Source: Naegleria gruberi
Taxonomy: Eukaryota
Direction: 5' to 3' (one strand)
Length of the DNA stretch: 64,000 nt
NCBI GenBank assembly: GCA_000004985.1
Contig: GG738857.1
The position numbers were made by a program, and so were the translations under genes. The notes below the pieces were generated by a model. It saw only the letters and a list, made by a program, of their open reading frames with translations, was not told the DNA's origin and did no database searches. This document shows, one piece after another, positions 14,711 through 54,533 of the stretch. Each line of letters opens with the position of its first letter. Positions within the stretch are counted from its first letter, which is position 1.

Positions 14711-17699
14711 ATGGCCGATCACAAAATGGTCTGCAAATTGGGTTTGTGTTTTGAGATGCGAGATTTAAAATTATTTATTAAATGTGTGATGATTACAGGC
14801 TGATAGGAAATATGTGTTGGAAGCTGTTAAACAAAATGGGTTGGCACTTGAAAATGCCGATGAATCTGGAAGCTGTTAAACAAAATGGATTGGCAATTGA
14901 ATTTGCTGATTCATCATTAAAAAAGATAGAGAAATTGTATTGGAATCTGTTAAACAAAATGGATATGCATTTAAATATGCCGATGAGTTATTGAAAAAAG
15001 ATGAAGAGTTTATATTGGAAGTTGTTAAACAAGATGGATTGGCAATTAAACATGCTGATTCATCATTACAAAAAGATAGAGAAATTGTATTGGAAGCTGT
15101 TAAACAAAATGTATATGCACTTAAATATGCAGATTCATCATTGAAAAAAGATAGAGAAATTATATTGAAATCTGTTAAGAAAAATGGATTGACACTTGAA
15201 TTTACTGATTCATCATTGAAGAAAGATAGAGAAATTGTATCGGAAGCTGTTAAACAACATGGATTGGCAATTGAGTTTGCTGATTCATCATTTAAAAAAG
15301 ATAGAGAAATTGTATTGGAAGCTGTTAAGCAAAATGTGTATGCAATTGAATTTGCTGATTCATCATTGAAGAAAGATAGACAATTTGTACTAGAAGCTGT
15401 TACGAAAAATGGATTAGTACTTGAATATGCTGATTCATCATTGAAGAAAGATAGAGAATTTGTATTAGAATCTGTTACGAAAAATGGATATGCATTTCAA
15501 TATGCTGTTTCATCATTTAAAAAAGATAGAGAAATTGTATTGGAAGCTGTTAAACAAAATGGAGCAGCGCTTAAATATGCTGATGAATCAGTTAAGGGAG
15601 ACAGAGAAATTGTATTGGAAGCTGTTAAACAAAATGGATTGGCATTTAAATATATTTATTCATCATTGAAAAAAAATAGAGAAATTATATTGGAAGCTGT
15701 TAAACAAAATGGATCAGCACTTAAACATGCTGATTCATTTTTGAAGAAAGATAGAGAAATTGTATCGGAAGCTGTTAAACAAAATGGATTGGCACTTCAG
15801 TTTGCTGATTCATCATTTAAAAAAGATAGAGAAATTGTATTGGAATCTGTTAAAAAAAATGGATCAGCACTTGAATATGCTGATTCATCATTTAAAAAAG
15901 ATAGAGAATTTATTTATTTGCTATTTAAATTGAACAAAGAAAATGCAAGAAACTTCTCACCATCTATATCCAAAACCATTGAAGAATGCTTAAATATTCA
16001 GAGAAAGCTGTCAAGCAATATAACTGAACAATACTCCAAAATATTTATGGATGAAAAGGATTTATATTATGCTATTGAATTAACAAGTCTCTTTAATCCA
16101 ACACCAAAAGGTACAATATTCAATTTCAATTCTATCTATACACCAATATTTATTGAAAAATTGATTATTTTTCAAATATTGAAACAAATGAACCATTCAG
16201 AATTGTCTAATGATATTATTGCTCTTATTGATTTACAAAGTACCAAAGCTAACTATTATTTATATTGTTTCAGATTGGACAAATTTCTTGAAGATAATCC
16301 CTGTCAATCAACAAGAATGAAAGATTTGAAGAATATTGTGGAACAAGTTGCAACAAACTTTGAAACGTCATTTTATACAAAACAGGAAATTAATGAAATT
16401 ATGATTTTTGCCAACAAGTGGTTTGAAAATGAGCAAACATTTGAAAATTACAAACAAATAATTTGTAAATATAATGAGCTGAGAGGAGATTTATCAAAAG
16501 TATTCAAATCTCTTAATTATTTCTATAATTATTTCAAAAATGATTATGATTTCATTTCAGTATTAGGATATGGAGGTGAAGGTGTTGCATTCAAAGTATT
16601 TCATAAAAGTAGTAAATCATTAAGGGCTTTAAAATTGAAATATGACCCAGAGGAATCTGAAGAATCAACAAAAGAAACCATTAATTTATTGAAAAGAACA
16701 GACATTGAAGGAAAGATCAAATGTTTTGATTGTGAAATTATTCAAAATCATTTATATTCAGTGATGGAACTTGGAGAGGAATCATTATCAAATTACATTT
16801 CAAGAAATAATGAAAGTGAAATTTATAGAAATGGATTCATTATTAAGGAAAAACTAATTGAAATTCTTGATATATTTATCAAAGTATTGAACTCAGTTCA
16901 ATCAATTCATGATCACAATATTTTACACAGAGATTTAGATCCTCAAAATATTGTCAAAGTTCAAGATTTATACAAAATTATTGATTTTGAAACATCAAGA
17001 GTGATCAAGACAGGTAATTCAATTACAATTGCTCGTGGAAAGTTTGCATACATGTCTCCTGAAGTTTCACATGATAATTATTCTGATGATTTATTGAAAA
17101 GTGGTAATGATGAAAAGCTTGCTCACAATGTTGGACAAATTACCATTTCATGTGATATATTTTCATTGGGATGTATTTTGTTGAAATTATTAACCAATTG
17201 TCCTTTGCAACTATGTTCAACATTTCTGAATGATTCAGATGTCTCTAAATATAATGATAATTACTTGTATTTTAGTGGACATGGAAAATATTTCTATACA
17301 GTTGTGACAACAACAGAGGGAGAAATGAAATTACATTATGCAATTGAAAAACTAATCAATGAAACAATTAATCCAGATTTAGGAGTGAATAACATATTGA
17401 TTAGAAGCATTATTAGCATGATTCAAAGAGATTCATCAAAAAGATTGGATTGTTATTCTCACAAGTTAACAATTGAGAATATTTTGAAATTTTTGAAAGG
17501 AGAAATCAAAGATATCACTTTCAATATTGAAAAACAAGTTGGAGAATTGAAGAAAATATCACCATTAAGAAGTTACTCTCAACTTGTAGAGGAAAATACC
17601 AAACTATTAGAAAGAATTAAATTATTGGAAGAGAACTCTTTATTGGAACGAATTAAAATGTTGGAAGAGGAAATAATAAATCTAAAAACAGACCAATAA
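14711..17699 (+). CDS. DUF4116-repeat / atypical protein kinase / coiled-coil family, copy A. The 5' repeat region is disrupted; the main intact ORF is 14940..17699
   Basis: It shares the family 5' structure: ATG at 14711, GTTTGT donor at 14742 and a TTACAG acceptor before GCTGATAGG at 14799. The segment 14860-14935 is out of frame because of a 26-nt deletion plus a 1-nt loss in an A-run, giving three in-frame stops. The ORF from 14940 on has about 13 25-aa repeats (LEAVKQNGxALxYADSSLKKDREIV), a helical linker, a kinase domain (LGYGGEGVAFKV, HRDLDPQN, DFETSR, YMSPEV) and a C-terminal coiled coil (LLERIKMLEEEIINLKTDQ). Confidence 0.6.
14799..15903 (+). repeat. Tandem 75-bp coding repeat array (25-aa DUF4116-like repeats) of family copy A
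   Basis: Visible 75-nt periodicity (gctgttaaacaaaatgg...gattcatcattgaagaaagatagagaaattgtattggaa). Alternative sense frames stay open across the array, which produces spurious ORFs such as 15484..15669. Confidence 0.85.
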
Positions 17700-18392: not shown

Positions 18393-19865
18393 ATGCCAAG
18401 TTTCATCAAGAGATTATCGTTACGAAATTCATTTCAACAACGTCAATCCATTCACCAAGATCGTAGAAGAACGATCCGAGCCATTCCCTTCTTTCAAGAT
18501 TTTAAAATTGCCATCATTGGAGATGAATGTGTTGGAAAATCGAATATTGCAATGAGATGTGCTGGAAAGGAGACGTTTGTGCCAGAACATGAACCAACGA
18601 TTGAAGATGAGTATAATTGTAAGGTACAGTTTATGTTTAGGTTGCCAGCACCTTTGGTGGAAGAAATAGTTTCGAATGGTGGTGAAGGAGATTCGAATGA
18701 ATTAATGAGAAGTAATCCCAAAGGTGATATTTATGGATATAAACAATTGGCACATGATTTGGAATTAATACCAATGGAATTGAGAAATTATATGAAATTG
18801 GATAATACTTTGCTATCAATTATTCAACAAAAAAGAGAAAAGGAAGAGGAAATGAAAAAAGCACTTGAGGAGAAACAAAAGAAAATGTTTAGTTTATTCA
18901 AGAAGAAATCAACAACGAGTGATTCTCCACAAAAATCTTCTCATGAGCATGCTGGAAATAATCAATCAGGAGAGGATGGAGATTTTGGAAGAGTAATCAC
19001 TGAGGAAGAGGACATTGATGATTATGTGGATGAATTACTTTCGGATGTGGTTTATAATTTCGAGCAGGACATTATTTGTAGAGTGACCATTGTGGATACG
19101 AGTGGGAGATCGGAAGTGAGAAAGGAAGCAACTGATTTGTCTTCAGTGGATGGATACATGTTGGTTTTTGATATGAATAATAAGGCATCATTTGCCAAGA
19201 TTCAGAATTATATTGATGAGTGTAAATTTGCCTACTATGAAAATCCTGCAAGGAAACATTCGGATGCAGCTGCTTCACACAGTTCGAGTAGTGCTCGATT
19301 GTCCTCTGCAAGTAATAATAGTTCAGCAACAATGAATTCAACCTCCTCAGCAAGTGCTGCCTCTTCCAATGTAAATAGTTCTAAACCATCGACAATTGAT
19401 AATCCTCCAATGGTCCTTATAATGAGTAAATGCGATCAGAAACCATCAGCCCTCAAGACCATTAATGCAGAGTATGGCTATGCTCTTGGAGATACTCATC
19501 ATTTTCCATTCTTTGTCACTAGTGCATGTGAAAATTTGAATATCCAAGAAGCATTAGAAGGTCTCCTGAGTGAAATTATCAAGAAGAACATTGAGGAAGG
19601 AGTTTACGAAACTCAAAACAAATCAATGCCAACACCACTACCATCTGCTGATGAAACTTTAAGCAAGACCAATAGTAGAAACTTTAAATTTGAGAATCAA
19701 AATATCAGTATCAGTAGCAATGCCAGTGATTACACTCCTGAATTGTTAACGTTCAGTGTTGGAAATGGAGTTGTTCCACAGAGTCCTCCTGAGAAGAAGA
19801 TTGTTCGTCAGAGTGTCTCTGCAACTCTGAGAAAGTATGTCGTTCAACAATTTAAAAAGAAATAA
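18393..19865 (+). CDS. Ras-superfamily small GTPase-like protein with large insertions and non-canonical catalytic motifs
   Basis: G1 is IAIIGDECVGKS, switch I is PTIEDEY, G3 reads DTSGRSE (Arg where the catalytic Gln sits) and G4 reads SKCD instead of NKxD. There is a roughly 130-aa acidic/K-rich insert and an S/N/A-rich low-complexity segment. The ATG at 18393 is preceded by caaa. Confidence 0.6.
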   Translation: MPSFIKRLSLRNSFQQRQSIHQDRRRTIRAIPFFQDFKIAIIGDECVGKSNIAMRCAGKETFVPEHEPTIEDEYNCKVQFMFRLPAPLVEEIVSNGGEGDSNELMRSNPKGDIYGYKQLAHDLELIPMELRNYMKLDNTLLSIIQQKREKEEEMKKALEEKQKKMFSLFKKKSTTSDSPQKSSHEHAGNNQSGEDGDFGRVITEEEDIDDYVDELLSDVVYNFEQDIICRVTIVDTSGRSEVRKEATDLSSVDGYMLVFDMNNKASFAKIQNYIDECKFAYYENPARKHSDAAASHSSSSARLSSASNNSSATMNSTSSASAASSNVNSSKPSTIDNPPMVLIMSKCDQKPSALKTINAEYGYALGDTHHFPFFVTSACENLNIQEALEGLLSEIIKKNIEEGVYETQNKSMPTPLPSADETLSKTNSRNFKFENQNISISSNASDYTPELLTFSVGNGVVPQSPPEKKIVRQSVSATLRKYVVQQFKKK

Positions 19866-19913: not shown

Positions 19914-21080
19914 TTAATTTGTACAATTTTGATTAAGCTGTATGGATTCTAATCTAGCCAACGTAGCTCTGTGATTCTCTCTACGTGTGCGTTTCCATTT
20001 GGACTCAAATGAAACCTTAGAGAGCAGGAAAACAAACATTAAGAAATATGCCAAGCAACAACAAATGAACGAAGTTATTGAAGGCAGGAGGGCTTGTGTC
20101 TTATGGCTAATTTCATAATAATTGGATAGATCAGTAGCGACTGGCTGAATATATAATTTAAATAAGCTCAGAAAAACCATGGTAAGGCAAGTGTAGCTAT
20201 AATAGTATAACAATACAGAGTCTAAAATAACCACAGAGAATGCAATTAACAATGCTAATACCCACAGTGATCGTTTGTGATCTATGAATAATAATCTTTC
20301 CTCTTCACTTCCTTTAATCAATTCTTGGATTTTCTTTTCTTCCAACTCTTTCAATTCTTCTTCCAAATTAGTATTGGATTCAACCTTGGTGACACTCGAA
20401 ATCACTATTTCCTCTTCTAAAGCTGCTTGTTTCAATTCATTATTAATTGAATTTAACACTGGTGGCACAACGGCAATATCCTCAACTGCCAGTGTATCTT
20501 GTAATATTGGTTGAGTACTTGTCGAAGGAGTTTGTAGTGCTCTGGCTGGTGTATCAATATTAGGAGTAGAGAAGAGTGACAGAATCTCTGATTGCTGAGC
20601 TGAATTGGGTACAATTGGTGTTGTGGAACCTCTCTTCACTTCCACATAATCCAACTCATCATCGACATCAACAAGAGACGAAGCCATTGGAGGAAGAACT
20701 GAAGTACTAAATCTATTAGGAGTTCTCATGAGTGCCTCATCAGAAATAGGTCTTTCCTCAGCAAAGGAACAAACCCTTCGTGAAGATGAATTTTTAAAGG
20801 TTCTTTCTTCTGGTTGTCTGTGTTGTGTTGGTGTTGCTTGTTGTTCTTCTTGTTCTATTGGTGTTGTTGTTGTTGGTGACGAAGATGGTGATGAATTGTG
20901 CAATTCCTTCTTGACTACTTTGATTTGCATAGAAGTTGGTGATTTCAAGTTGTAATCCTCTAATAATGAACGAAAATCATTGCCAGTCACTGGAGATGAT
21001 ACTTCATCTGTTTCTTCTTCAGTAGCAACAACAGCCTTTCTATTCTTATTCAAAGGAGTGAGGTTCAATTTTCTTTCCAT
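19914..21080 (-). CDS. Hypothetical membrane protein: S/T/P/Q-rich N-terminal region, acidic coiled segment and 2-3 C-terminal TM helices
   Basis: Single 388-aa ORF with low-complexity composition matching neighbouring genes. Hydrophobic stretches are LWVLALLIAFSVVILDSVLLYY and SITSFICCCLAYFLMFVFLL. Confidence 0.45.
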   Translation of the reverse strand: MERKLNLTPLNKNRKAVVATEEETDEVSSPVTGNDFRSLLEDYNLKSPTSMQIKVVKKELHNSSPSSSPTTTTPIEQEEQQATPTQHRQPEERTFKNSSSRRVCSFAEERPISDEALMRTPNRFSTSVLPPMASSLVDVDDELDYVEVKRGSTTPIVPNSAQQSEILSLFSTPNIDTPARALQTPSTSTQPILQDTLAVEDIAVVPPVLNSINNELKQAALEEEIVISSVTKVESNTNLEEELKELEEKKIQELIKGSEEERLLFIDHKRSLWVLALLIAFSVVILDSVLLYYYSYTCLTMVFLSLFKLYIQPVATDLSNYYEISHKTQALLPSITSFICCCLAYFLMFVFLLSKVSFESKWKRTRRENHRATLARLESIQLNQNCTN

Positions 21081-21513: not shown

Positions 21514-24500
21514 ATGACAAAACTTGTTTCTTGCCTTGCCACGGCCATCAAACTCGGAGTGGTGAGCACGTTTGTGTGCTCTTTTGTTTTGTTTCATATT
21601 TATTTCTTTTTGGAGAGATCTCCACCAGCTAATACAAAGCATTTTGATGATATGAATACTAATCCTTTAAATTTTGCTGATTTGAATTTATTTTCCATTC
21701 ATGATGAGAGTAGTATTGTGAAGGAAGGTTCATCGTCATCACCCGGAAAGAATAGAAGAAGACTTGTTCAACCAAAGAGCTTGAGAAAAATTGCTCTTGA
21801 TGAAATCGGAACTGTAAATTCAACCAAAGTTGTGAATGATGGTATGTAATATTTGTACAATAATTTTCAATTAATAATTAATAATTAACAATAATATAAT
21901 ATACAATGCAATATTCATCAATGAATAACAATAATTTTGGAATACTTGGAAAAATCTTCATCATGTGGATTAACAACAGATGACGAAAAAACATATTATA
22001 CTATTTTCCAAATTCATGGAACTCCTGGATCTAGACGATGGAGGTATCCAGTTGATCATCACTTTGTGAGGACTTTCGGAGGAGACAAAAAGTTGAGAAT
22101 TCTCAGTCTTGATAGACCTGGTATTGGTCAATCTACTCCAATAATATCTAGTATTGACTCGGAAGGTAATCCTGTCTATAATTTGGAACCTTTCAATGTG
22201 GATTATTATGAAGCTAGTGCTTTGGACCTTTTATATGTTGTGAGAAAGTTGAGATTAAAGCACTTTTCACTCTTTGCTTATTCTCAAGGTGCTGCTCATG
22301 CTACAATGCTTTCACACTATTTGGAACAATTAAAGAAGAGAGAACGTGGTGAAAAGGTAACTCATGCTCACTTGAAGAGCACTGAAAGATTCCACAATGA
22401 CTTGATGACCAAGATTTTATTGTCAAAGGATTCCGAAAAGTATTGGACTTTTGAAAATGGAGTTTCAAACTATACATCATCTACTGAATGGTCATGGAAA
22501 GATGTTACCATCGACAGAGTTGTCTTGATGGCACCACAAGGTTTCTATTCAGAAAAGGTCAGACAAGCTCTCTTGAAAGAGCAAGACATGACCATTCCTG
22601 AGCACAAGAGATGGTCTTCAAACCTTCATCAAATTTATTCTTTCCACAATTATCAACCACCACTCGGAACTAATATTGTTCATGCTGTATACAAGATGGT
22701 TTCACAATTGGGATTTATCACTAATATCAAATATTGGGAAGAAAATATGAAATTCATGCTTGATCCTTTGGGAAGAGATTCATTCATTTTCCATGATGAA
22801 GCTACTGGATGGAAGAAGGCTTTTAACAATACCATGATTGATACCTACAGATTTACTACCATGACTTTCCTTGTAGAAGTTTATAATAGTTATTATTTCA
22901 CTGAAAATTATGGACCTAACTTTGATATTTCCTTGAAGAATATTCCAACATGGATTTTGAAAGCTGAGGATGATATTCTTGTTCCAATTGAAGCTTTTAA
23001 TACCTTTGTTGAAAAGGTTTGCACCAATAAGGAAACTTGTAATGTCACTGTTGCTTCCAACACTACCCATTTCCAAATTTTCAAGAATTATTACACACAA
23101 TCTATTCAACACCTTGTGAAGGGAGTTTTTGGAGAAAGTGTCAGCCTTAGAAAGCCAAGAAGAAAGATTATTGTTATTGGTAGTGGTCTTGCTGGCTTGA
23201 CAGCTACTCTCGAATCTGCCTACACCTACGATCAAGATGTCGTTCTCATTGAAAAGGAACCTAGACTTGGAGGAAACAGTGCCAAGGCAACCAGTGGTAT
23301 GAATGCTATCCAAACAACAACACAAAGAAACGTTCTCGTCTTTGATTCATATACTCACTTTTGGAATGATACTATCAAGTCTTTCACAGGAGGAAAGGTC
23401 TTGTCTACCCTCAAGGAAGCTAGAAGAATCATTAGAAATCCAAAGAATAAGAAGAAGGTTGAAGGAGAGGAAAATTTAATTACAGAAAATTCTTGGAGAA
23501 TTTTGGAAACTCTTGTCAAGGATTCCAAGCCAGCCCTCCAATTCTTACAATCATTTGATGTGAAAATGGATGTTGTTTCCCAATGTGGAGGCCACTCAAA
23601 GCCAAGAACTCACAGAAGCATTAACAAGAGTGACAAACCAATTAACATTGGAAGTGATATTATTTCCAAGCTCTCTGCTTTTATTAGAGAAAAATTGGCT
23701 GAGCGTGTTGTCATCAAGACTGAACATCATGCCATTCAATTAATTTCTGAAGAAAATGATCTTGGAGAAACCATTGTCAAGGGTGTCAAGGTTTTGAACA
23801 TTAAGGAAAATACTACTGAAACAATTATGGGAGATTCTATCATTTTGGCAGCTGGTGGTTATGGTCAAGATAGAGATGGTTATTTGAAGCAATTCGCTCC
23901 ACACTCTGTCAATTTACCATCAACTAATGGTTTGTGGGCAACAGGTGATGGTATAAAGATGGCTGTCAGAGATGTAAACGCATCCTTGATTGATATGGGA
24001 GAAATTCAAATTCACCCTACTGCCTTTGTTGATCCAGCCAATCCTACTGCAATGACATTAATTCTCGCTCCAGAATCATTGAGAGGTTATGGTGCTATTA
24101 TTGTCAATCAAGAGGGTAAGAGATTTGTCAATGAATTGGGTACAAGAGATGAAGTCAGTGATGCCATCTTTGAAAATTGTGGAAGGAAGGAAATTATCCT
24201 CACGTTACTGCCTACATGATTATGAATGAATTTGTTATGAAATCATTTGGTGAAAGCTTGACCTCCTTCTATGCCAAGAAGGGTCTCATTCGTAAATATG
24301 AAAACTTTGAAGATTTGTGTCAAAAGGAAGAATTGAACATGTCTGCCAACTTTTGTGCCAACCTCGAAGATACCATTATTGATTATGATTATTCAGTCGA
24401 TTATAGAAGATCAGATCCTAACTATAAGGATTCATTTGGAAAGACAGTTTTCCCATCTAAATTCAATTTGGAAAAGAGTAAGGAAACTACTCCATTCTTT

Positions 24501-24731
24501 GTGGCAAGAATTACACCTGCTGTTCACTACACTCAAGGTGGTCTCTTATTCAACAATAAGGCACAAGTTTTGCGTAGAAAGACTCAAGATACAAACGAAG
24601 TAATTAGAAATCTCTATGCTGCCGGTGAAGTCACTGGTGGATGTCATGGTAAGAATCGTTTGGCAGGTAACAGCTTGTTAGAATGTGTAGTTTTTGGTCG
24701 TATTGCTGCCTCAGAAGCTGCCCAAGAATAA
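21514..24731 (+). CDS. Fusion protein of an N-terminal membrane anchor, an alpha/beta-hydrolase-like domain and a soluble FAD-dependent (NADH-type) fumarate reductase domain. The assembly has a frameshift near 24180-24215. Proposed exons join(21514..21841,21980..~24200) with continuation in another frame to 24731
   Basis: ORF 21514..21849 (TM anchor) ends at a GTATGT donor. A 138-nt AT-rich intron (21842..21979, ...AACAACAG, phase 1) joins it in frame to ORF 21937..24219. That ORF has a hydrolase region (nucleophile elbow FAYSQGAA) and the FAD-binding FRD N-terminus ([14 protein letters not shown]...[14 protein letters not shown]). ORF 24177..24731, in another frame, carries the FRD C-terminus ([10 protein letters not shown]...[33 protein letters not shown]). 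The frame switches within the GGAAGGAAGG tract. Confidence 0.6.
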
Positions 24732-24812: not shown

Positions 24813-25749
24813 CTAACACACGACAATTGAAATCAAGATCATTCCAAGAAACATTGCAATAGACACCAATGAAGAATCAAATAGTCCACTAGTTCCACTG
24901 CTGATATTCCTCGTAACAAACGAACCATACTTGTACGTTTCTCCAAACAATCGAATGGCACAATGTGTACAATTCTGCTTGTTATTATTCAACCAATAAA
25001 TCAAATCAATTGCATCAGCTATTATTCCCTCAACTGTTCCATCCATCACTTCCTGGAATATGCCATCATAATTCTCCTTATAAATAATGGATGCATTTGG
25101 AAAGGTGGCTTGACCCAAAGCAACAAAATAAGATCCCTTCAGAACTGTAAATGCTGGTGAAGGAGCTTTTTGTAAATCTTGAATTGAGGAATAGTTTAAG
25201 GCATGTGCCTTATTCGAAAGTAAAACTCCAGTGGAAGAACTTCCATATCCACAATTAAAATTAACTTTTCGTGCTCTTTCCTGTGAATAAATTGTATTAC
25301 TCGTGACAACATCACACAATCCACTGTCGACTGCTCTTGTCAATGTGTCAAAATATCCCAAAATGGAAGTATTAATAATGATATGATTGGCTTTCAATTT
25401 GGCATCTGGATATTTGGAATTTAAAGTGGAAACTAGTAAGTCACCTGCTTGTTTATAGAAATTTCTCCAGACATCTGTTGGTTCTTCATAACAAATGTTT
25501 AGTTTAGTTTTGGTTGTTGGAAAGGGATTCGAATTGGGATAAGAAGTTGTTCTTTCGACACAAGAAGGGACTTGGAAGGCTACTCACGACATCTGACATT
25601 GCTTTATCAATTGCTTGATAAATGTCATTCGACATGTATTGAGTTTCGGATAATGAGGGAGTAATATAGTCTGCAGAAACTCGGGGAGAAGTGAGTAGTA
25701 CAATAAATGTAAAGCAATAAAACATCAACGACAAGCAAAATAGTTTCAT
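24813..25749 (-). CDS. Secreted, membrane-anchored solute-binding-protein family 3 (amino-acid/glutamate-receptor ligand-binding-like) domain protein. The exon structure or frame between 25398 and 25560 is unresolved
   Basis: ORF 25504..25749 encodes a signal peptide (MKLFCLSLMFYCFTFIVLLTSPRVSA). ORF 24813..25397 is open upstream to about 25585 in the same frame. It carries the SBP_bac_3-like motif LTRAVDSGLCDVVTSNTIYSQERARKVNFNCGY and a hydrophobic C-terminal tail (SLVSIAMFLGMILISIVVC) that could be a GPI signal or a TM helix. A 1-nt indel in the CCCTTTCC run near 25520-25530, or an unmapped intron, would join the two ORFs. Confidence 0.4.
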
Positions 25750-27871: not shown

Positions 27872-30574
27872 AATGTCTGAAGATTGGGTTTGTGTTTTGT
27901 GATGCGATTTTATTAATGGGGGTGTGATGACTATCACAAATAATAGGCCGATAGGACATATGTGTTAGAAGCTGTTAAACAACGTGGAAATGCACTTAAA
28001 TATGCCGATGAAGCATTTAAAAAAGATAGAGAAATTGTATTGGAGGCTGTTAAAAAAAACGGATTAATAATTCAATATGCTGATTCATCATTGAAAAGAG
28101 ATAGAGAAATTGTATTGGAAGCTGTTAAACAGCGTGGATATGCAATTCAATATGCTGATTCATTGTTAAAGAAAGATAGAGAAATTGTATTGGAATGTGT
28201 TAAACAAGATGGATTGGCACTTGAATATGTTGATTTATCATTACAAAAAGATAGAGAAATTGTGTTGGCAGCTGTTAAACAAAATGGATTGGCACTTCGA
28301 TATGCTGATTCATCATTGAAAAAAGATAGAGAAATTGCATTGGAATCTGTTAAACAACGTGGATATGCAATTCAATATGCTGATTCGTTGTTAAAGAAAG
28401 ATAGAGAAATTGTATTGGAAGCAGTTAAACAAGATGGATTGGCACTGCAATATGCTTATTTTCAAAATGACAGAGAAATTGTATTGGAAGCTGTTAAGCA
28501 AAATGGATCAGCAGTTGAATACGCTGATTCATCATTGAAAAAAGATAGAGAATTTATATTGGAATCTGTTAAACAACATGGATTGACTCTTAAATATGCT
28601 GATTCATTATTGAAGAAAGATAGAGAAGTTGTTTCGGAAGCTGTTAAACAAGATATATTGGCACTTAAATATGTTGATTCATCATTTAAAAGAGATAGAG
28701 AATTTATATTGGAAGCAGTTAAACAACATTCATTGGCACTTGAATATGCTGATTCATCTTTACAAAGAGATATCGTTTTTACTTATTCACTTTTTAAATT
28801 GAACAAAGAAAATGCAAGAAAGTTCTCACCCTCTATAACCAAAACCATTGAAGAATCCATTAATCTTCAGAGAAAGCTGTCAAGCAATATAATTGAACAA
28901 TACTCCAAAATATTTATGGATGAAAAGGATTTATATTATGCTATTGAATTAACAAGTCTCTTTAATCCAACACCAAAAGGTACAATATTCAATTTCAATT
29001 CTATCTATACACCAATATTTATTGAAAAATTGATTATTTTTCAAATATTGAAACAAATGAACCATTCAGAATTGTCTAATGATATTATTGCTCTTATTGA
29101 TTTACAAAGTACCAAAGCTAACTATTATTTATATTGTTTCAGATTGGACAAATTTCTTGAAGATAATCCCTGTCAATCAACAAGAATGAAAGATTTGAAG
29201 AATATTGTGGAACAAGTTGCAACAAACTTTGAAACGTCATTTTATACAAAACAGGAAATTAATGAAATTATGATTTTTGCCAACAAGTGGTTTGAAAATG
29301 AGTAAACATTTGAAAATTACAAACAAATAATTTGTAAATATAACGAGCTGAGAGGAGATTTATCAAAAGTATTCAAATCTCTCAATTATTTCTATAATTA
29401 TTTCAAAAATGATTATGATTTCATTTCAGTATTAGGATATGGAGGTGAAGGTGTTGCATTCAAAGTATTTCATAAAAGTAGTAAATCATTAAGGGCATTA
29501 AAATTAAAATATGACCCAGAGGAATCTGAAGAATCAACAAAAGAAACCATTAATTTATTGAACAGAACAGACATTGAAGGAAAGATCAAATGTTTTGATT
29601 GTGAAATTATTCAAAATCATTTATATTCAGTGATGGAACTTGGAGAGGAATCATTATCAAATTACATTTCAAGAAATAATGAAAGTGAAATTTATAGAAA
29701 TGGATTCATTAAGAAGGAAAAGTTGATTGAAATTCTTGAAATATTTATCAAAGTATTGAACTCAGTTCAATCAATTCATGATCACAATATTTTACACAGA
29801 GATTTAGATCCTCAAAATATTGTCAAAGTTCAAGATTTATACAAAATTATTGATTTTGAAACATCAAGAGTTATCAAGACAGGTAATTCAATTACAATAG
29901 CTCGTGGAAAGTTTGCATACATGTCTCCTGAAGTTTCACATGATAATTATTCTGATGATTTATTGAAAAGTGGTGATGATGAAAAACTTGCTCACAATGT
30001 TGGACAAATTACCATTTCATGTGATATATTTTCATTGGGATGTATTTTATTGAAATTATTAACAAATTGTCCATTACAACTATGTTCAACATTTGTTAAT
30101 GATTCAGATGTCTCAAAATATAATGACAAGTATCCATATTTTAGTGGTCATGGAAAATATTTCTATACAGTTGTAACAACAACAGAGGGAGAAATGAAAT
30201 TACATTATGCAATTGAAAAACTAATCAATGAAACGATTAATCCAGATTTAGGAGTGAATAACATATTAATTAGAAGCATTATTAGCATGATTCAAAGAGA
30301 TTCATCAAAAAGATTGGATTGTTATTCTCACAAGTTAACAATTGAGAATATTTTGAAATTTTTGAAAGGTGAAATCAAAGATATCACTTTGAATATTGAA
30401 AAACAAGTTGGAGAATTGAAGAAAATCTCACCATTAAGAAGTTACTCTCAACTTGCTGAAGAAAATAACAAAATTACAGATGAAAAAACCAAACTTTCGG
30501 ATGAAAATAGCAACCTGTTAGAAAGAATTAAAATGTTGGAAGAGGAAATAAGAAAACTCACACAAACCATATGA
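27872..30574 (+). pseudogene. DUF4116-repeat / atypical kinase / coiled-coil family, copy B, interrupted by an in-frame TAA at 29303..29305. Exon 1 is 27872..27886 and the intron is 27887..27945
   Basis: The micro-exon ATGTCTGAAGATTGG (MSEDW) is followed by a GTTTGT...AATAG intron and an exon 2 in frame from GCCGATAGG. ORFs 27962..29305 and 29558..30574 lie in one frame. They are separated only by a TAA where every other copy has CAA (ENE*TFENYKQ against ENEQTFENYKQ). There is also an in-frame deletion in one repeat (YAYFQNDREIV). Confidence 0.7.
27946..28790 (+). repeat. Tandem 75-bp coding repeat array of family copy B (about 11 repeats)
   Basis: Periodic LEAVKQxGxALxYADSSLKKDREIV units at nucleotide level. 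Confidence 0.85.
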
Positions 30575-33080: not shown

Positions 33081-36000
33081 TTACTCTTTATTTGAAATAG
33101 CCAATGGCTTCAAATGTTGCAAAATCTCATAAATTGAATAAACTCTCTCAATGTGATTTGCTTTGGAAAGTGAATTTGCAACAACCTTAATAGCAAATGC
33201 TCTATAATGCAATTCTGGATCGGATAATAAATAGAACTTGGCACTACAATATTTTCCTTTAGCATCCCATAATAATTGTTCTTCTTGTTTCTTATTTTCG
33301 TATCCGAATCTCAATTGACCTAAATCGAATTTCTTGGTAGATTCGTTTTCTTTTGTGATGGCAGAGTTGAAAAGAATTATTCCTTCACCAGATGGATCGG
33401 CTCTTACTCCAACAAATGAATTAATTCTATTCACATTATCCGAAACTTCAGCAAAGAAATCTTGGTCTCTCAATTTGGCTGTTTCCTTAAACTTTTGAGG
33501 ATCTTGAATTTCTTTCAATTCTGGATGCATATAAACTACTTCTACTGTTTTAGTTTCACCCAAAGAATCGACTAAACTAAACTTAAACGTACTAGGATAT
33601 GGGAAATAATGAGGAACCAAACTAGTAGCATGATTATTGTATTCTGGATTTTCTCCTTCGCAAATCGTCTTACCATTAACGTTATAATTAACAGTTTCGC
33701 CTGGATTAATATTGAAATTACTCAAATGCACATATTCACCTTGATCTGTGCTTTCTTTGTAAACTACTTCAACTTCTTCAGTGAACTTGTTCTTTACAAA
33801 GGTTTTAATGAGAGCTGGTTGCCAATAAGTAACATCTGCTGCATATGTGAAAGGAATCCATTTCTTATCATGATCTAAATATTCGATTTTCATGGAAACT
33901 ACTGAAATAGTTGTGTTGGTTGGGTTGACAAAACGAAGATTGAGAAGTTCGAATTCTACCTTACCAATGTTGATGTAGATTGGAGTGAAGGAGCTTCTGG
34001 TTTGGATATTGGTAGAGGTTGAGCTGTCAGGAAGAATAATATTGATTTGACTTGTTCCCGCCAAAATTGGGTTGACCAATTTGGATAGATCATTGTCAAG
34101 TTGTTTAACTGGACCCATTCCTTCAGAGATTGGTTTGAATTTTTCAGAGACGTATTTGGAATAGTACTTTTCCAAGGCAACCAAATCTTTGATATTGAGT
34201 TTATCGGTGGCAAAATCATGGTTGACTGGACGAAGTGTTCCAGTAACTGTTGGAGCAGCAATAAATTCACCAAAACCGAATAATTTGAAAGTACCTAATA
34301 ATAATACATCTCTTGTTTCAAATTTCCAATATTTTGCCTTAAATCCAGTTGAACTATCACTCAGTTCAAATCTATTCAAATTTGGATAAACTTTTGACTG
34401 TTCCATATTCTTACCAAATGGAATCCAAGGTTCATTAAGTCTAATCTTGTAATAAACTTGAATGTCTGAAGCGAATTTCTTTTGATTCTTTTCATCATAC
34501 AAGGCATGAGTATAATATTCAATATATTTAAAGAATTGAATTTTGTTGTAACCAATAATTAAAGTTCCATATTCAGAACAAATACCATATTCTGCTGAAT
34601 CATCCAATAGACCTGCGATGGTATTCTCAGCCCTTTGCTCAGTTTCAAGGGAGGATGGTTGCTTATTTCCCAAAACTTCATCCTCATCCAATCCAACATA
34701 AATTTCATCAGGAACTAGACAGTTGACTTGATTTCCCTTGTAAGGTGTCAAGTGGGGAGCTTCTTGTTGCTCTCTTGAGAGAATCACTCCGTTCAAACTA
34801 TTGTATGGAACGAAAGGAGCTACTGCAAAGAATTGAATCATGCCAAATGAGAAATCTCCACAAACTCTTTCGAATTTGAAGAATCGAGCATTGATTCCTT
34901 CTCCATCGAATTTGATAATGTTTAGTTTAGGCCAGTGATAGAAATTACCAGAAAGTGGTCGAACACGAGTCCACAGATCATTTTCATTAACTTTGGAGTA
35001 TAAAACGAGTGACGTTTTGAGCTCGTCCGAAAATTGAATCTTTTCATGTTTCATAAATTCAAAATATTTGAATTGGAAGACAGCTTCAAATTCGAGAATC
35101 AAATAATTGTGAACTGATTGAGCTATGGATGTACCGTATTTACCATTATCATCAAGAATACCCTCAATTGAGTTGTTTGCCTTATTTGAATTTTGGGAGG
35201 TGAGAATCTTGATTGGTGCAACAACATTCACATCAGGACAAGTGCTTTCCGTATAGATTGGATCCACAAGATTAGATGGAGAAAGTTTTGTAACTTGTGG
35301 ATTTTCCTTTCTACTCAATTCAACCTTAATCTCCTTATGCAACTCTGAACCAATCTTGACTTGTTGAGCTGGTGCAAATGCATAAAATCTCATCATACCT
35401 GCAGCTAACGTACCAGTCATTCCTTGATGTGGTTTTTGTACAAAACGAATGTGTTTTGCCTTCAAACCAACCTCACCAAAATCCAACATGAAAACTCCCT
35501 TAACACTTGTAGTAAGGGAATAAACTTTTCTGTAAGTAAGCCAATTATCTCTATTGGTGAGCTTGTATTCGACGAGTGTGTCGATGAGGGAGCAGGTTTG
35601 GTATCTTCCTGTGCCATCCTTTTTTTCGTATTGATCACTTTTTTCGTGGTTTCTGAAAGTCATGACTCTGAAATTGTAAACTCTGTCAAATGCCATTTCA
35701 ATGAATGAGGAAGTTCCGGAGCTTGTGCTGAATCCCTCTTTACCATCTGGTTTCGATAAATCTTCAATTGCTTTAGGGTCTGCTTTTTGACGTGCATTAG
35801 AAGTATTTCTATAAAGGGATACAGGTTTAATCAAGTTGATTTCTTGACATCCTGGATAGGGATCTTCCAAAAACTTTGCATATTCTTCTTTTGATAGAAG
35901 TGGACCAGACTTGGTTTTGACTGCTACGAATGGGGCGTATCCAAAAGGTCTAAACATACCAATTTCAAGGCAACTGTCAGCTGCCACCAATCTCAATCTC

Positions 36001-38144
36001 TTGGCCTTAATTGGTTCAGTAAATGTAATGGTATTCACAAGTGGACCAAGTTGAATAGAATCCTTCTCAATAGTACTAACCAAAGTCCATGGATCTGAAT
36101 CTTTTACCTTGGACTCAATCTTTGTACCTTTCAGATAAAAAACTGGATCATTCGAAAGTGACAAGGTCATGTATTCCACATGAGTAAGCAAGTAAACATG
36201 TTCAAATTCCAACTCAATTTCCTTTTGATGACTAGCAGTGGTGTAACCATAATCTCCAGAATCATCTAACAAACCTTCAACGGTATTTTCACGTCTTGAT
36301 TCTCCCTTAGAAATTAATTCCTTAATTGGAATGAGATTTACCTCTGGACCAGTGAATTTAGGTTCCCATTGGGCGAGTGCTTCTTTTACTGATAGGATAA
36401 CACCTCCTTTAGTTTGAATTGGAACATAGTCACAGTAGCCATATAGACGAATCATACCAAAAAAGAGATTTTCATTATCTTCCTTACAGAATCTCCAATA
36501 TCTTGCCTTAATTGGTGTTGTGAATTCAATAGTGTTGACTTGAGGACGTAATTTAATATCACTTCTCTTGATATGTCCATAAATTGTCCATGAATCACTT
36601 TCTTTCACTCTGTATTCGATTCTGACATTTTGTAAACAATCCAATTGCATGTTGTCTCCCAATTTACTGGACTTGTATTCCAAATAAGTGAACAAATACA
36701 CTGCGCCATATTTGATTTCAATGTAATTATTCGAACCTCTTGCTGTGCATGCTCCCAATTTACCAGAATCGTCGAATAATCCCTGGAGTGAGTTATCACC
36801 CCAAGTGTCCTTTGAGGATTGTTTTAATTCGAGAGGTGGAACACAGTTGATTTCACCTGAAGTGAATTTTGGTTCATCAGAAGATACAACAATTGGTTGA
36901 GAAGTTTGTGGTTGTTGAGCTATTACTGGTTGAGTAGTTTGTGGTTTAGGTTGAGTAGTGGTAACTGGAGTTTGTTGAACTACTGGTTGAGCAACTTGAG
37001 GTTTTGGAGTTGCAACCACTGGTTGTGAAACTACTGGTTGAACAACTGGTTGACTTGTTGTTGGTTGACTAGTTACTATTGGAGTTGCTTGAACAACAAC
37101 TGGAACTGAAGTTGTGCCAGATTGAGCATTATATCTAGAAACAACACCAGAAACAGTCTTGATATCAGTATATGGATGATAACCAAATAATTTCAACATT
37201 CCAATAAATAATTGGACGAATCCATTTCCTAATTTGGAGAATTTGAAAGCTCTTGCTTTAACTGGAGTATCAAAGTGAATATAGTTACTTTCTGGATGTT
37301 TCTTAATATCAGATTTCTTGATTTCTCTCAATGGAATCCATTCTTGACTTTCCAATTGTTTATATTCGATTTGGGTATTTTCCAATAACCCAAACTGATT
37401 ATTTTCTCCCAATCTACAAGCCTTAAATTCTAGTAAAGTAAACAAATAAACTCTATTGAACGTGAGAACAACATTCTGCTTCGATCCATTTTGAGTACAA
37501 ACACCATACTTTCCAGTTTCGTCTAACAATCCTTCAATGGTATTGTTTCCCCAAGTATCCTTGGATGATAATACCAATTTAGTAGGAGCTATAACACTAA
37601 TTTCACCTTCTGTGTATTGAGGTTCATCAAGATTATCAACAACTGCTGACTCTTGCACATTCGAAACTTGAATAATCTCACCAGCTTTAGTCTTGATATT
37701 CACAGGAAGAGCATCACTAGCTCTGACCCACAATCTACCAAACGCAACCTCACCCTTTCCAAATCTATCAAACTTAATAAAACGAGCAGCAACATTAAGA
37801 TTAATCAATTGAATACCATTTCCTTCTTTGAAAGAACAAACTGCCTTCCAAGGATCTGTTTCATTCGAACGAACACTAACATCGACACCTCTCAATCTCT
37901 GCTGATCATCAGGATACTTTTTGTTTGAAACACATTCCAATGTTGTGAATTGATAAATTCTATCAAATTTCAACTCGACATTAGGTTTCATAACATATTG
38001 AGTGGAACAACCATGTTGACCACTCTGATCTAATAATCCTTCGAGAGAGTTATCAGATTTCTTGCATGGATCTTTAACAATCAATGCAGTTGGCAAAACA
38101 ATAAAACCATCACTCATTTTTTTTATGTTGTGGTTGACTAACAA
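33081..38144 (-). CDS. 1687-aa protein built from about 8 tandem galactose-binding-like / discoidin (F5/8 type C)-like domains of roughly 180 aa, plus a Q/P/T/V-rich linker
   Basis: A motif recurs once per domain: N(S/T)IEGLLD(D/E)(S/T)GKYG...(F/Y)L(L/F)T..E(Y/F). The linker at about 36850-37130 (TPIVTSQPTTSQPVVQPVVSQPVVATPKPQ...) is also repetitive at nucleotide level (ggttgagtagt / actggttga). Confidence 0.7.
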   Translation of the reverse strand: MLVNHNIKKMSDGFIVLPTALIVKDPCKKSDNSLEGLLDQSGQHGCSTQYVMKPNVELKFDRIYQFTTLECVSNKKYPDDQQRLRGVDVSVRSNETDPWKAVCSFKEGNGIQLINLNVAARFIKFDRFGKGEVAFGRLWVRASDALPVNIKTKAGEIIQVSNVQESAVVDNLDEPQYTEGEISVIAPTKLVLSSKDTWGNNTIEGLLDETGKYGVCTQNGSKQNVVLTFNRVYLFTLLEFKACRLGENNQFGLLENTQIEYKQLESQEWIPLREIKKSDIKKHPESNYIHFDTPVKARAFKFSKLGNGFVQLFIGMLKLFGYHPYTDIKTVSGVVSRYNAQSGTTSVPVVVQATPIVTSQPTTSQPVVQPVVSQPVVATPKPQVAQPVVQQTPVTTTQPKPQTTQPVIAQQPQTSQPIVVSSDEPKFTSGEINCVPPLELKQSSKDTWGDNSLQGLFDDSGKLGACTARGSNNYIEIKYGAVYLFTYLEYKSSKLGDNMQLDCLQNVRIEYRVKESDSWTIYGHIKRSDIKLRPQVNTIEFTTPIKARYWRFCKEDNENLFFGMIRLYGYCDYVPIQTKGGVILSVKEALAQWEPKFTGPEVNLIPIKELISKGESRRENTVEGLLDDSGDYGYTTASHQKEIELEFEHVYLLTHVEYMTLSLSNDPVFYLKGTKIESKVKDSDPWTLVSTIEKDSIQLGPLVNTITFTEPIKAKRLRLVAADSCLEIGMFRPFGYAPFVAVKTKSGPLLSKEEYAKFLEDPYPGCQEINLIKPVSLYRNTSNARQKADPKAIEDLSKPDGKEGFSTSSGTSSFIEMAFDRVYNFRVMTFRNHEKSDQYEKKDGTGRYQTCSLIDTLVEYKLTNRDNWLTYRKVYSLTTSVKGVFMLDFGEVGLKAKHIRFVQKPHQGMTGTLAAGMMRFYAFAPAQQVKIGSELHKEIKVELSRKENPQVTKLSPSNLVDPIYTESTCPDVNVVAPIKILTSQNSNKANNSIEGILDDNGKYGTSIAQSVHNYLILEFEAVFQFKYFEFMKHEKIQFSDELKTSLVLYSKVNENDLWTRVRPLSGNFYHWPKLNIIKFDGEGINARFFKFERVCGDFSFGMIQFFAVAPFVPYNSLNGVILSREQQEAPHLTPYKGNQVNCLVPDEIYVGLDEDEVLGNKQPSSLETEQRAENTIAGLLDDSAEYGICSEYGTLIIGYNKIQFFKYIEYYTHALYDEKNQKKFASDIQVYYKIRLNEPWIPFGKNMEQSKVYPNLNRFELSDSSTGFKAKYWKFETRDVLLLGTFKLFGFGEFIAAPTVTGTLRPVNHDFATDKLNIKDLVALEKYYSKYVSEKFKPISEGMGPVKQLDNDLSKLVNPILAGTSQINIILPDSSTSTNIQTRSSFTPIYINIGKVEFELLNLRFVNPTNTTISVVSMKIEYLDHDKKWIPFTYAADVTYWQPALIKTFVKNKFTEEVEVVYKESTDQGEYVHLSNFNINPGETVNYNVNGKTICEGENPEYNNHATSLVPHYFPYPSTFKFSLVDSLGETKTVEVVYMHPELKEIQDPQKFKETAKLRDQDFFAEVSDNVNRINSFVGVRADPSGEGIILFNSAITKENESTKKFDLGQLRFGYENKKQEEQLLWDAKGKYCSAKFYLLSDPELHYRAFAIKVVANSLSKANHIERVYSIYEILQHLKPLAISNKE

Positions 38145-53900: not shown

Positions 53901-54533
53901 CAATACAATTTCTCTATCTTTTTTAAATGATGAATCAGCATATTGAAGTGCCCACCCATTTTGTTTAACAGCTTCCAATACAATTTCTCTATCCTTTTTA
54001 AATGATGAATCAGCATCTTCAAGTGCCGATCCATTTTGTTTAACAGCTTCCAATATAATTTCTCTATCTTTTTTAAATGATGAATCAGCAAATTCAAGTG
54101 CCAATCCATTTTGTTTAACAGCTTCCAATATAATTTCTCTATCTTTTTTAAATGATGAATCAGCGTATTGAAGTGCCAATCCATAGTGTTTAACAGCTTC
54201 CAATATAATTTCTCTATCTTTTTTCAATAATGAATCAGCGTATTCAAGTGCTGGTCCATAGCGTTTAACAGCTTCCAATACAATTTCTCTATCTTTTTTA
54301 AATGATGAATCAGCATATTGAAGTGCCCACCCATTTTGTTTAACAGCTTCCAATACAATTTCTCTATCCTTTTTAAATGATGAATCAGCATCTTCAAGTG
54401 CCGATCCATCTTGTTTAACAGCTTCCAACACATATTTCCTATCGGCCTATTGTTGTGATCATGATCATCACATTTTATATAATAATTATTTCACCACACA
54501 GCAACAAATACCAACCCACTCGTTTATGTTCAT
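50958..54533 (-). CDS. DUF4116-repeat / atypical kinase / coiled-coil family, copy D, the only apparently intact member. Exons complement(join(50958..54446,54516..54533))
   Basis: The micro-exon ATGAACATAAACGAGTGG (MNINEW) is followed by a 69-nt GTTGGT...AATAG intron (54447..54515). The exon-2 ORF encodes about 23 25-aa repeats, a linker, a kinase domain with the same atypical motifs as the other copies, and a coiled coil (LLERIKVLEEENRKLKQN). It ends in TAA followed by the 3' flank ttgtttgagttttctattttcc shared with the other copies. Confidence 0.8.
52715..54446 (-). repeat. Tandem 75-bp coding repeat array of family copy D (about 23 units, highly homogenised)
   Basis: Near-identical 75-nt units. 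Both alternative sense frames and one antisense frame are stop-free, which gives spurious ORFs 53321..54433 and 52840..53196. Confidence 0.9.

What the first reader, a model, noticed from the sequence alone, without database searches (positions are those of the whole stretch)
21514..24731. Unusual fusion of a membrane anchor, an alpha/beta-hydrolase and a soluble fumarate reductase
Soluble NADH-dependent fumarate reductases (OSM1/FRDS type) are normally stand-alone or fused to ApbE or cytochrome-b5-reductase domains. Here the FAD-binding FRD domain (GSGLAGLTA ... HYTQGGL ... [13 protein letters not shown]) is preceded by a hydrolase-like domain of about 380 aa with an AYSQG nucleophile elbow. 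A GTATGT...CAG intron also joins it to an upstream exon that encodes a TM helix. FRD indicates fumarate respiration under low oxygen.
Basis: partly seen in the sequence, partly recalled or inferred. Interest (0 to 1): 0.55.

Follow-up and report, generated by a model that had tools for sequence, protein, structure and literature searches.

The report
Membrane-anchored hydrolase–fumarate reductase fusion gene
This is a real Naegleria gruberi gene, shared with N. fowleri and Willaertia, that joins a membrane anchor, a divergent alpha/beta-hydrolase domain and a yeast-Osm1-type fumarate reductase in one protein; the reading frame in this assembly is broken by one missing base, and nothing here points to fumarate respiration.

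Summary
The three-part gene exists. The window is Naegleria gruberi NEG-M, and the gene is already public as XP_002679512.1 "NADH-dependent fumarate reductase".

- **Gene structure.** Exon 1 (21514-21841) encodes the protein's only strongly hydrophobic segment. A 138-nt GTATGT...CAG intron (21842-21979) follows. Exon 2 encodes a divergent alpha/beta-hydrolase-fold domain of about 394 aa (Ser211, Asp441, His473) and a complete Osm1/flavocytochrome-c-type fumarate reductase domain with all six catalytic residues.
- **Conservation.** The same architecture occurs in N. fowleri (same intron position and phase), in three Willaertia magna paralogs, and as one uninterrupted ORF in a metagenomic eukaryote. 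The hydrolase domain was found only in these fusions.
The frame breaks near 24193, where one base is missing in GGAAGGAAGGAAATT. The public model hides this with a 32-nt "intron" that deletes conserved residues. Conservation after the break is undiminished (75%), so it is an assembly error or a very recent mutation.
- **Interpretation.** An anchor plus FRD is common (45 of 111 close homologs), so only the hydrolase insert is unusual. There is no NADH-binding domain and no sign of a respiratory role, and N. gruberi is reported to be strictly aerobic and to make no succinate.

Moderately interesting: a new domain architecture of a known enzyme.

The parts
21514..21841 (+). Exon 1: start codon, N-terminal hydrophobic anchor (aa 4-34, nt about 21523-21615), the conserved [12 protein letters not shown] motif and a linker carrying the conserved RKIxxDEI motif
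   Evidence: ORF. Hydropathy. Conserved in N. fowleri, Willaertia and P0127.
21842..21979 (+). Spliceosomal intron: 138 nt, GTATGT...CAG, phase 1
   Evidence: Stops in all frames. N. fowleri has a 200-nt intron at the same position and phase. Nucleotide identity is 52% in the intron against 66-71% in the exons.
21980..23160 (+). Divergent alpha/beta-hydrolase-fold domain (aa 110-503). Features: HGTPGS oxyanion-type motif, AYSQG nucleophile elbow (22276-22290, Ser211), invariant Asp441, His473, an invariant Cys457/Cys463 pair, and a large lid with inserts
   Evidence: Pfam Abhydrolase_1. AF2 model with pTM 0.65 and canonical strand/helix order. Foldseek gave 278 PDB matches at E<=0.001, and all 50 listed are alpha/beta hydrolases. 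Invariant columns.
23161..24193 (+). FRD domain, part in frame A: GSGLAG FAD-binding motif (23179-23196), His788, Glu808, Arg811, Arg832
   Evidence: Residue equivalences to Osm1 are from PMC6242907.
24181..24196 (+). Frameshift site: GGAAGGAAGGAAATTA lacks one base relative to the colinear N. fowleri codons. Adding an A after 24193 gives ...[16 protein letters not shown]...
24154..24185 (+). 32-nt 'intron' of the public gene model. It is an annotation workaround, not a real intron
   Evidence: P0121 reads ...GTRDEEGNYPH.... The 11 deleted residues ([11 protein letters not shown]) lie in a stretch that aligns without a gap to N. fowleri, Willaertia, P0123 and Osm1. All GT..AG alternatives also delete conserved residues.
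24194..24731 (+). FRD domain, part in frame B (codons from 24195): His959 (HYTQGG), Arg1003 ([16 protein letters not shown]), stop TAA at 24729-24731
   Evidence: 75.4% identity to N. fowleri, against 74.8% before the frameshift.

Best explanation
Shown:
- This is one conserved protein-coding gene of vahlkampfiid amoebae (Naegleria, Willaertia and one unnamed relative).
- It encodes a single-pass, N-terminally anchored protein. A lineage-specific alpha/beta-hydrolase-fold domain of about 400 aa sits between the anchor and an Osm1/Frd1-type fumarate reductase domain.
- The FRD domain has a full-length FAD_binding_2 match and keeps all six residues that bind and protonate fumarate in Osm1 and Shewanella Fcc3.

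Inferred:
- The domain most likely reduces fumarate to succinate on non-covalently bound FAD.
- It has no NADH-binding module, so the electron donor is probably a reduced free flavin or a partner flavoprotein, as for yeast Osm1. The role would be redox balancing rather than respiration.
- Positive N-flank charges, a net-negative C-flank and an invariant Cys pair favour an N-in/C-out signal anchor, which would place both domains in a lumenal or exoplasmic compartment.
- In Naegleria the hydrolase domain keeps Ser-Asp-His and may be an active esterase. The nucleophile is lost in Willaertia (Gln) and in the metagenomic relative (Gly), so the role shared across the family is more likely structural or binding.
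- The one-base frame break in this assembly is a sequencing or assembly error or a very recent lesion, not old decay.
For: - Identity of the window: one search gave a 100% match to P0121, and names it XP_002679512.1 of N. gruberi.
- Domains. The closest solved structure is yeast Osm1 (5glg, E 9.5e-83), aligned without a gap across the frameshift site.
- Catalytic residues H788, E808, R811, R832, H959 and R1003 correspond to Osm1 H281, E301, R304, R326, H435 and R477.
- Same architecture elsewhere: N. fowleri P0131, 1043 aa; Willaertia P0122, P0125 and P0126; the metagenomic single ORF P0123/P0127.
- Intron conserved in position and phase but not in sequence.
- An exhaustive phmmer search of 1.84 billion representatives found the hydrolase domain only in these fusions.
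- Alpha/beta-hydrolase fold. Weak similarity to bacterial stand-alone hydrolases that share FQLHGTPGSR.
- No decay after the frameshift: 75.4% against 74.8% identity.
- N-terminal anchors are common in stand-alone homologs.
- Osm1 uses free reduced flavins and acts with Ero1 in the ER (PMC6242907).
Against: - The frame is broken in the only N. gruberi sequence available, so this copy may be non-functional.
- No transcript, protein, activity or localisation data were available.
- Topology rests only on the charge distribution and a Cys pair.
- The hydrolase model has low confidence in the lid (mean pLDDT 56.7), and triad geometry could not be inspected.
- Aromatic residues of the second flavin pocket of Osm1 (W295, F297) are not conserved here (alignment), which weakens the free-flavin donor analogy.
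- The Willaertia paralogs have lost FRD Arg402 (to Asp) and His504 (to Tyr) as well as the hydrolase Ser and His. The family can therefore persist without either chemistry.
Confidence: 0.6

Rival explanations
1. The frameshift is real in strain NEG-M and the gene is a recent pseudogene, or one dead allele. The product would lack the last 180 aa of the FRD domain, including His959 and Arg1003.
For: The frame break is in the sequence itself. NEG-M is a long-cultured axenic strain that shows no fumarate-to-succinate metabolism (PMC6205838). Another gene in the window carries an in-frame stop.
Against: The 184 codons downstream are open and 75% identical to N. fowleri, the same as upstream. The defect is a single base in a short A run inside a GGAA repeat, which is a typical consensus error.
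Confidence: 0.25
2. The public gene model is right: a 32-nt intron (24154-24185) is spliced out and the protein has 1015 aa.
For: GT...AG borders exist and the result is in frame.
Against: It deletes [11 protein letters not shown]. That stretch directly follows the catalytic Arg and aligns without a gap to N. fowleri, Willaertia, P0123 and Osm1. The two supported introns of this gene family are 138 and 200 nt long.
Confidence: 0.03
3. This is an NADH-dependent fumarate reductase used for anaerobic energy metabolism (fumarate respiration or a succinate-producing fermentation), as the first reader and the database name imply.
For: It is homologous to trypanosomatid NADH-FRDs (38-39% identity), and the fumarate-binding residues are intact.
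Against: No ApbE, cytochrome b5 reductase or other NAD(P)H-binding domain was found. The enzyme class is not coupled to quinol or the membrane. N. gruberi is reported to be strictly aerobic, with no rhodoquinone and no succinate produced.
Confidence: 0.1
4. Both domains are pseudoenzymes and the protein has a non-catalytic role, such as binding or scaffolding.
For: The Willaertia paralogs lack the hydrolase Ser and His and the FRD Arg402 and His504 equivalents, yet three copies persist. The metagenomic relative lacks the nucleophile.
Against: Both Naegleria species keep every catalytic residue of both domains, and the metagenomic relative keeps all FRD residues.
Confidence: 0.08

Closest known systems
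Saccharomyces cerevisiae Osm1/Frd1 soluble fumarate reductases (PDB 5GLG)
   Same: Best solved match (E 9.5e-83). A single flavoprotein with flavin and clamp domains. All six conserved active-site residues are present. There is no haem and no NADH domain. An N-terminal targeting or hydrophobic segment precedes the Rossmann motif, as in many eukaryotic homologs.
   Different: About 470 aa against 1026 aa. Osm1 has no alpha/beta-hydrolase domain. The Naegleria protein has a 32-aa insert after the first FAD-binding segment that is 100% conserved between N. gruberi and N. fowleri apart from 3-4 residues. The aromatic residues of the second flavin pocket of Osm1 are not conserved.
Trypanosomatid NADH-dependent fumarate reductases (FRDg/FRDm1)
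   Same: Homologous FRD core at 38-39% identity. This is the source of the database name.
   Different: Those enzymes carry an N-terminal ApbE-like domain and a C-terminal cytochrome b5 reductase domain that deliver electrons from NADH (my own knowledge of the family). Neither domain is present here.
Shewanella flavocytochrome c3 (Fcc3; 1QJD, 1QO8)
   Same: Same FRD fold and catalytic residues. TIGR01813 scores 354 bits.
   Different: Fcc3 has an N-terminal tetrahaem cytochrome domain as its electron entry point. Here the N-terminal partner is an alpha/beta-hydrolase fold with no known redox cofactor.
Abhydrolase_1/6-type alpha/beta hydrolases (aryl esterase 1VA4, PhaZ 8YNV, non-haem haloperoxidases, ABHD6)
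   Same: HG...DRPGxGxS motif, nucleophile elbow, Asp after strand 7 and His after strand 8, with a lid between strands 6 and 7.
   Different: Only 10-14% identity. About 120 extra residues in the lid and inserts. Found only fused to FRD. The nucleophile is not conserved outside Naegleria.

Membership tests
Flavocytochrome c / Osm1-type soluble fumarate reductase (PF00890, TIGR01813) | Full-length match to the family profile above the curated cutoff | tested here: met
   PF00890 matches profile positions 2-414 of 414 at E 1e-64. TIGR01813 scores 354.4 bits against a cutoff of 285.45. This holds for the frame-repaired protein.
Flavocytochrome c / Osm1-type soluble fumarate reductase (PF00890, TIGR01813) | Six conserved substrate-binding and proton-delivery residues (Fcc3 H365, E378, R381, R402, H504, R544; Osm1 H281, E301, R304, R326, H435, R477) | tested here: met
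   H788, E808, R811, R832, H959 and R1003 align to them. The residue list is from PMC6242907.
Flavocytochrome c / Osm1-type soluble fumarate reductase (PF00890, TIGR01813) | N-terminal GxGxxG dinucleotide fold and no histidine for covalent FAD attachment | tested here: met
   GSGLAG at aa 510-515. The segment [13 protein letters not shown] has no His and matches Osm1 GGNSIKASSGING.
Flavocytochrome c / Osm1-type soluble fumarate reductase (PF00890, TIGR01813) | Uninterrupted coding sequence | tested here: not met
   There is a one-base frame break near 24193 in this assembly. The N. fowleri ortholog is intact.
Flavocytochrome c / Osm1-type soluble fumarate reductase (PF00890, TIGR01813) | Fumarate reductase activity with a defined electron donor | not testable with these tools
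   Needs recombinant protein.
Trypanosomatid-type NADH-dependent fumarate reductase | ApbE-like and cytochrome b5 reductase (FAD/NAD-binding) domains flanking the FRD core | tested here: not met
   Pfam lists only FAD_binding_2-related families and Abhydrolase families at E<=0.1.
Membrane-bound quinol:fumarate reductase / SdhA-FrdA | Score above the family cutoffs | tested here: not met
   TIGR01176 scores 75.8 bits against a cutoff of 932.7, and TIGR01812 scores 132 against 567.
Alpha/beta-hydrolase fold | Profile match and fold | tested here: met
   Abhydrolase_1 scores 27.1-29.9 bits against a cutoff of 25.8, but covers only profile positions 4-89 of 245. The AF2 model (pTM 0.65) has the canonical element order. 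Foldseek found 278 PDB matches at E<=0.001, the 50 listed all being alpha/beta hydrolases, with TM-scores of 0.32-0.60.
Alpha/beta-hydrolase fold | Catalytic triad: nucleophile in a Sm-x-Nu-x-Sm elbow after strand 5, an acid after strand 7, His after strand 8 | tested here: inconclusive
   Present by position in N. gruberi (S211, D441, H473) and in N. fowleri. The nucleophile is Gln in Willaertia and Gly in P0123, and His is lost in Willaertia. Geometry and activity were not testable.

The most novel reading that the evidence does not exclude
In Naegleria the two domains may form a functional unit in an oxidising, extracytosolic compartment. Two versions fit the evidence. In the first, the active Ser-Asp-His hydrolase releases an enoate (fumarate or a related alpha,beta-unsaturated acid) from an ester or thioester, and the tethered flavoprotein then reduces it. 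In the second, the hydrolase fold replaces the haem or b5-reductase module as the docking site for the electron donor (for example Ero1- or Erv-type sulfhydryl oxidases), giving these aerobes an oxygen-independent sink for disulfide-bond formation.
Probability: 0.12. Interest if true: 0.7.

Novelty: new variant of a known kind. Interest (0 to 1): 0.4.

Why it matters
- **New partner for a modular enzyme.** Soluble fumarate reductases take their electrons through a fused module (haem, ApbE/b5-reductase, FMN-binding). A conserved fusion to a cofactor-less alpha/beta-hydrolase fold is a new partner. It raises the question of how electrons enter, or whether a hydrolytic step is coupled to reduction.
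- **The 'anaerobic genes in an aerobe' puzzle.** N. gruberi is strictly aerobic yet carries genes read as anaerobic. This 'NADH-dependent fumarate reductase' is better read as an anchored Osm1-like redox-balancing enzyme than as an energy-metabolism enzyme.
- **Pathogen relevance.** The brain pathogen N. fowleri has an intact ortholog of this gene.
- **Annotation.** The public N. gruberi model contains a spurious 32-nt intron and a misleading name.

Tried and rejected
- **Word-indexed searches with the N-terminal 504 aa.** The single-sequence search found nothing. The same search with an alignment found only the N. fowleri cluster. The exhaustive search was needed to find the family.
- **Exact-product look-ups.** Look-ups of the frameshifted N. 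gruberi ORFs, of a neighbouring gene (the 490-aa Ras-like ORF at 18393-19865) and of P0121 in public assemblies found nothing. I therefore have no independent N. gruberi sequence to settle the frameshift.
- **A real short intron at the frameshift.** All 46 GT..AG candidates with the right length class were enumerated, and every one deletes conserved residues. Rejected.
- **Structure prediction.** The first AF2 run with 6 sequences was too poor to use (pLDDT 42). The second, with N. fowleri added, was usable for fold assignment only.
- **Other searches with the hydrolase domain.** The PDB sequence search gave only E>0.2 matches, and NCBIfam gave none.
- **Metagenome scan.** It found only high-GC bacterial stand-alone hydrolases and no further fusions.
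- **Literature.** Searches found no paper describing this architecture. The N. gruberi genome paper is not held.
- **Targeting signals.** No C-terminal peroxisomal (SKL-type) signal or ER-retention (KDEL-type) signal is visible in the termini...EAAQE in N. gruberi and ...AFDRN in N. fowleri.
Full report
**What is in the sequence**

The window has 32.6% G+C. It comes from Naegleria gruberi NEG-M. The hydrolase-like stretch is 100% identical to P0121, which is XP_002679512.1 / EFC46768.1 / D2V8X8, "NADH-dependent fumarate reductase", 1015 aa.

- An ATG at 21514 opens a 111-codon ORF that runs into GTATGT at 21842.
- A second frame is open from 21937 to a stop at 24217-24219. It holds the hydrolase-like domain and two thirds of the FRD domain.
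- A third frame, shifted by -1, is open from 24174 to the TAA at 24729-24731 and holds the rest of the FRD domain.
One base is missing.

**The frameshift**

- Adding one A to the run at 24191-24193 (GGAAGGAAGGAAATT) gives ...[34 protein letters not shown]...
- This is codon-for-codon colinear with N. fowleri (...[34 protein letters not shown]...).
- It also aligns without a gap to yeast Osm1.
- The public model instead removes 24154-24185 as a 32-nt intron, giving ...GTRDEEGNYPH.... That deletes residues directly after the catalytic arginine that are present in every homolog.
- I enumerated all 46 GT..AG intervals that could restore the frame. Every one removes conserved sequence.
- Identity to N. 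fowleri is 74.8% in the FRD part before the break and 75.4% after it, so nothing has decayed.
- The break is either a consensus error or a very recent mutation. I could not obtain an independent N. gruberi sequence to decide between these.

**The intron and the TM exon**

- Splicing 21841 to 21980 is in frame (phase 1), and the intron has stops in all frames.
- The exon-2 frame has no ATG before 22306, which lies beyond the nucleophile elbow. The hydrolase core therefore cannot be translated without exon 1.
- In the N. fowleri contig L002, a 110-codon ORF encodes a homologous N-terminus: [42 protein letters not shown]... It ends at GTATGT at the same codon position and is followed by a 200-nt intron ending in TTAG.
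- Nucleotide identity is 66% in exon 1 and 71% in the start of exon 2. It is 52% in the intron, the same as in the flanks. Shuffled sequence gives 47%.
- The N. fowleri RefSeq protein P0131 (XP_044564755.1, 1043 aa) uses exactly this junction.
- The anchor and the FL(E/V)xSPxxNT motif are also present in Willaertia magna P0125/P0126 and in the metagenomic P0127. In P0127 the anchor, hydrolase and FRD lie in one uninterrupted ORF.
- The anchor (aa 4-34, Kyte-Doolittle mean 2.0) is the only strongly hydrophobic segment in the protein.

**The FRD domain**

- FAD_binding_2 matches over its full length (E 1e-64), and TIGR01813 scores 354 bits against a cutoff of 285.
- SdhA/FrdA, L-aspartate oxidase and ketosteroid dehydrogenase models all score far below their cutoffs.
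- The best solved relative is Osm1 (5GLG, E 9.5e-83), followed by the Shewanella flavocytochromes c3.
- The Osm1 structure paper lists six fully conserved residues: H281, E301, R304, R326, H435 and R477 (PMC6242907). They correspond here to H788, E808, R811, R832, H959 and R1003.
- The closest sequence homologs (38-43% identity) are mostly stand-alone eukaryotic FRDs of about 500 aa, from Balamuthia, Anaeramoeba, chytrids, nematodes and trypanosomatids.
- No ApbE, cytochrome b5 reductase, haem or FMN-binding domain is detected. The "NADH-dependent" label was therefore transferred from trypanosomatid enzymes without the domains that make them NADH-dependent. That last point rests on my own knowledge of the trypanosomatid family.

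**The hydrolase-like domain**

- Abhydrolase_1 matches aa 119-223 just above its cutoff (27-30 bits against 25.8).
- A profile of the family finds only alpha/beta hydrolases in the PDB, at insignificant E-values, through the shared (F/I)Q(I/L)HG(T/I)PGS...DRPG(I/Y)G(Q/E)(S/T) motif.
- With N. fowleri added to the alignment, AF2 gave pTM 0.65 and mean pLDDT 56.7. The core is well placed and the lid is poor. The element order is canonical:
  - a strand, then the elbow (AYSQG), then a helix;
  - strand 6, followed by a long helical lid;
  - strand 7 followed by EDD, then a helix;
  - strand 8 followed by NTTH, then a helix.
- Foldseek against the PDB gave 278 matches at E<=0.001. All 50 listed are alpha/beta hydrolases, including aryl esterase, PhaZ, haloperoxidases, epoxide hydrolases, ABHD6 and KAI2.
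- Asp441 and the pair Cys457/Cys463 are invariant in all eight family sequences.
- Ser211 and His473 are kept in both Naegleria species. The nucleophile is Gln in Willaertia and Gly in the metagenomic relative, and Willaertia also lacks the His.

**Distribution**

- An exhaustive phmmer search of 1.84 billion cluster representatives with the hydrolase domain returned only four hits. These were the N. gruberi protein itself, the Willaertia cluster (three paralogs, 1164-1183 aa), the metagenomic cluster (936-953 aa) and one spurious repeat protein.
- Every genuine hit is a fusion to FRD. No stand-alone copy of the domain was found.
- A metagenome scan added only distant, 69-70% G+C bacterial stand-alone hydrolases.
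- The metagenomic relative sits on a 36% G+C contig next to an IBR-domain gene, so it is eukaryotic.
- The Willaertia paralogs have also lost the Arg402 (to Asp) and His504 (to Tyr) equivalents of the FRD domain. They are probably no longer fumarate reductases.

**What is and is not unusual**

- Among the 111 closest FRD homologs that start with Met, 45 have a hydrophobic segment (KD > 1.6) before the GxGxxG motif. One example is Anaeramoeba ignava P0007.
- An N-terminal anchor or signal on an Osm1-type FRD is therefore common. The lineage-specific feature is the insertion of about 400 aa of alpha/beta-hydrolase fold between the anchor and the flavoprotein.

**How it probably works**

- *Shown:* one polypeptide carries an anchor, a hydrolase fold and a catalytically complete FRD core.
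- *Inferred from Osm1:* fumarate is reduced on non-covalently bound FAD. Electrons arrive from reduced free flavin or a partner flavoprotein, not directly from NADH.
- *Inferred from charge distribution:* Lys residues lie N-terminal to the hydrophobic core and ERSPP...DD lies C-terminal to it. Together with the invariant Cys pair, this favours an N-in/C-out orientation, with both domains lumenal or exoplasmic. That would resemble the ER pool of Osm1, which supports Ero1 (PMC6242907).
- *Open:* whether the hydrolase is an enzyme in Naegleria or a structural or docking module.
- *Physiology:* N. gruberi NEG-M and a wild-type strain need oxygen, contain only ubiquinone and excrete no succinate (PMC6205838; PMC6856725). 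This argues against a respiratory or fermentative role.

**Surroundings**

- The gene is bounded by a divergently transcribed Ser/Thr-rich membrane protein gene (19914-21080, minus strand) and a convergent SBP_bac_3-like ORF (24813-25397, minus strand).
- The neighbours have no functional link to the gene.

**Verdict**

- The structural interpretation is right.
- The physiological interpretation is not supported.
- The gene is already in the databases under a misleading name and with a faulty model. The architecture appears undescribed in the papers I could search.
- I rate it a new variant of a known kind and of moderate interest.

Noticed in passing
window 14940-17699 (+), 27962-30574 (+), 46001-48037 (-), 50958-54431 (-), 61466-63894 (-): There are five paralogs of a gene family that joins many DUF4116 repeats (12 in one copy, E 7e-200) to a protein kinase domain and a coiled-coil tail. 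The last copy is interrupted by the 50-N assembly gap at 62807-62856.
   Followed up: partly
window about 29303-29305: The DUF4116-kinase copy at 27962-30574 has an in-frame TAA (FENE*TFENY) where the paralog at 14940-17699 has Gln (FENEQTFENY). The frame continues unchanged afterwards. This is a nonsense mutation, so a probable pseudogene, or a base error.
   Followed up: partly
window 23386-23481 (aa 579-610 of the repaired protein): A 32-aa basic insert ([32 protein letters not shown]) in the FAD-binding domain is absent from Osm1, Balamuthia, Anaeramoeba and the metagenomic relative. It is almost identical between N. gruberi and N. fowleri and is present in a longer form in Willaertia. Its function is unknown.
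   Followed up: no
window 2052-4952 (-) and 5005-7044 (-): Two adjacent NHL-repeat genes. The first also has teneurin-like EGF repeats, a TM helix and a C-terminal protein kinase domain, which makes it a receptor-kinase-like architecture.
   Followed up: partly
window 33081-38144 (-): A 1687-aa ORF with repeated F5/8 type C (discoidin)-like modules, separated by a Pro/Thr/Gln-rich linker.
   Followed up: no
P0122, P0125, P0126 (Willaertia magna): Three paralogs of the fusion, two of them on one 169-kb contig, have lost key residues of both the hydrolase and FRD domains and carry long Asn/Gln/Thr-rich inserts. They are retained despite this apparent loss of both chemistries.
   Followed up: partly
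The search for homologous proteins: The word-indexed protein search returned neither the N. gruberi protein itself nor the Willaertia and metagenomic fusions, although all of them are in that collection. Negative results from that tool for this family are therefore unreliable.
   Followed up: yes
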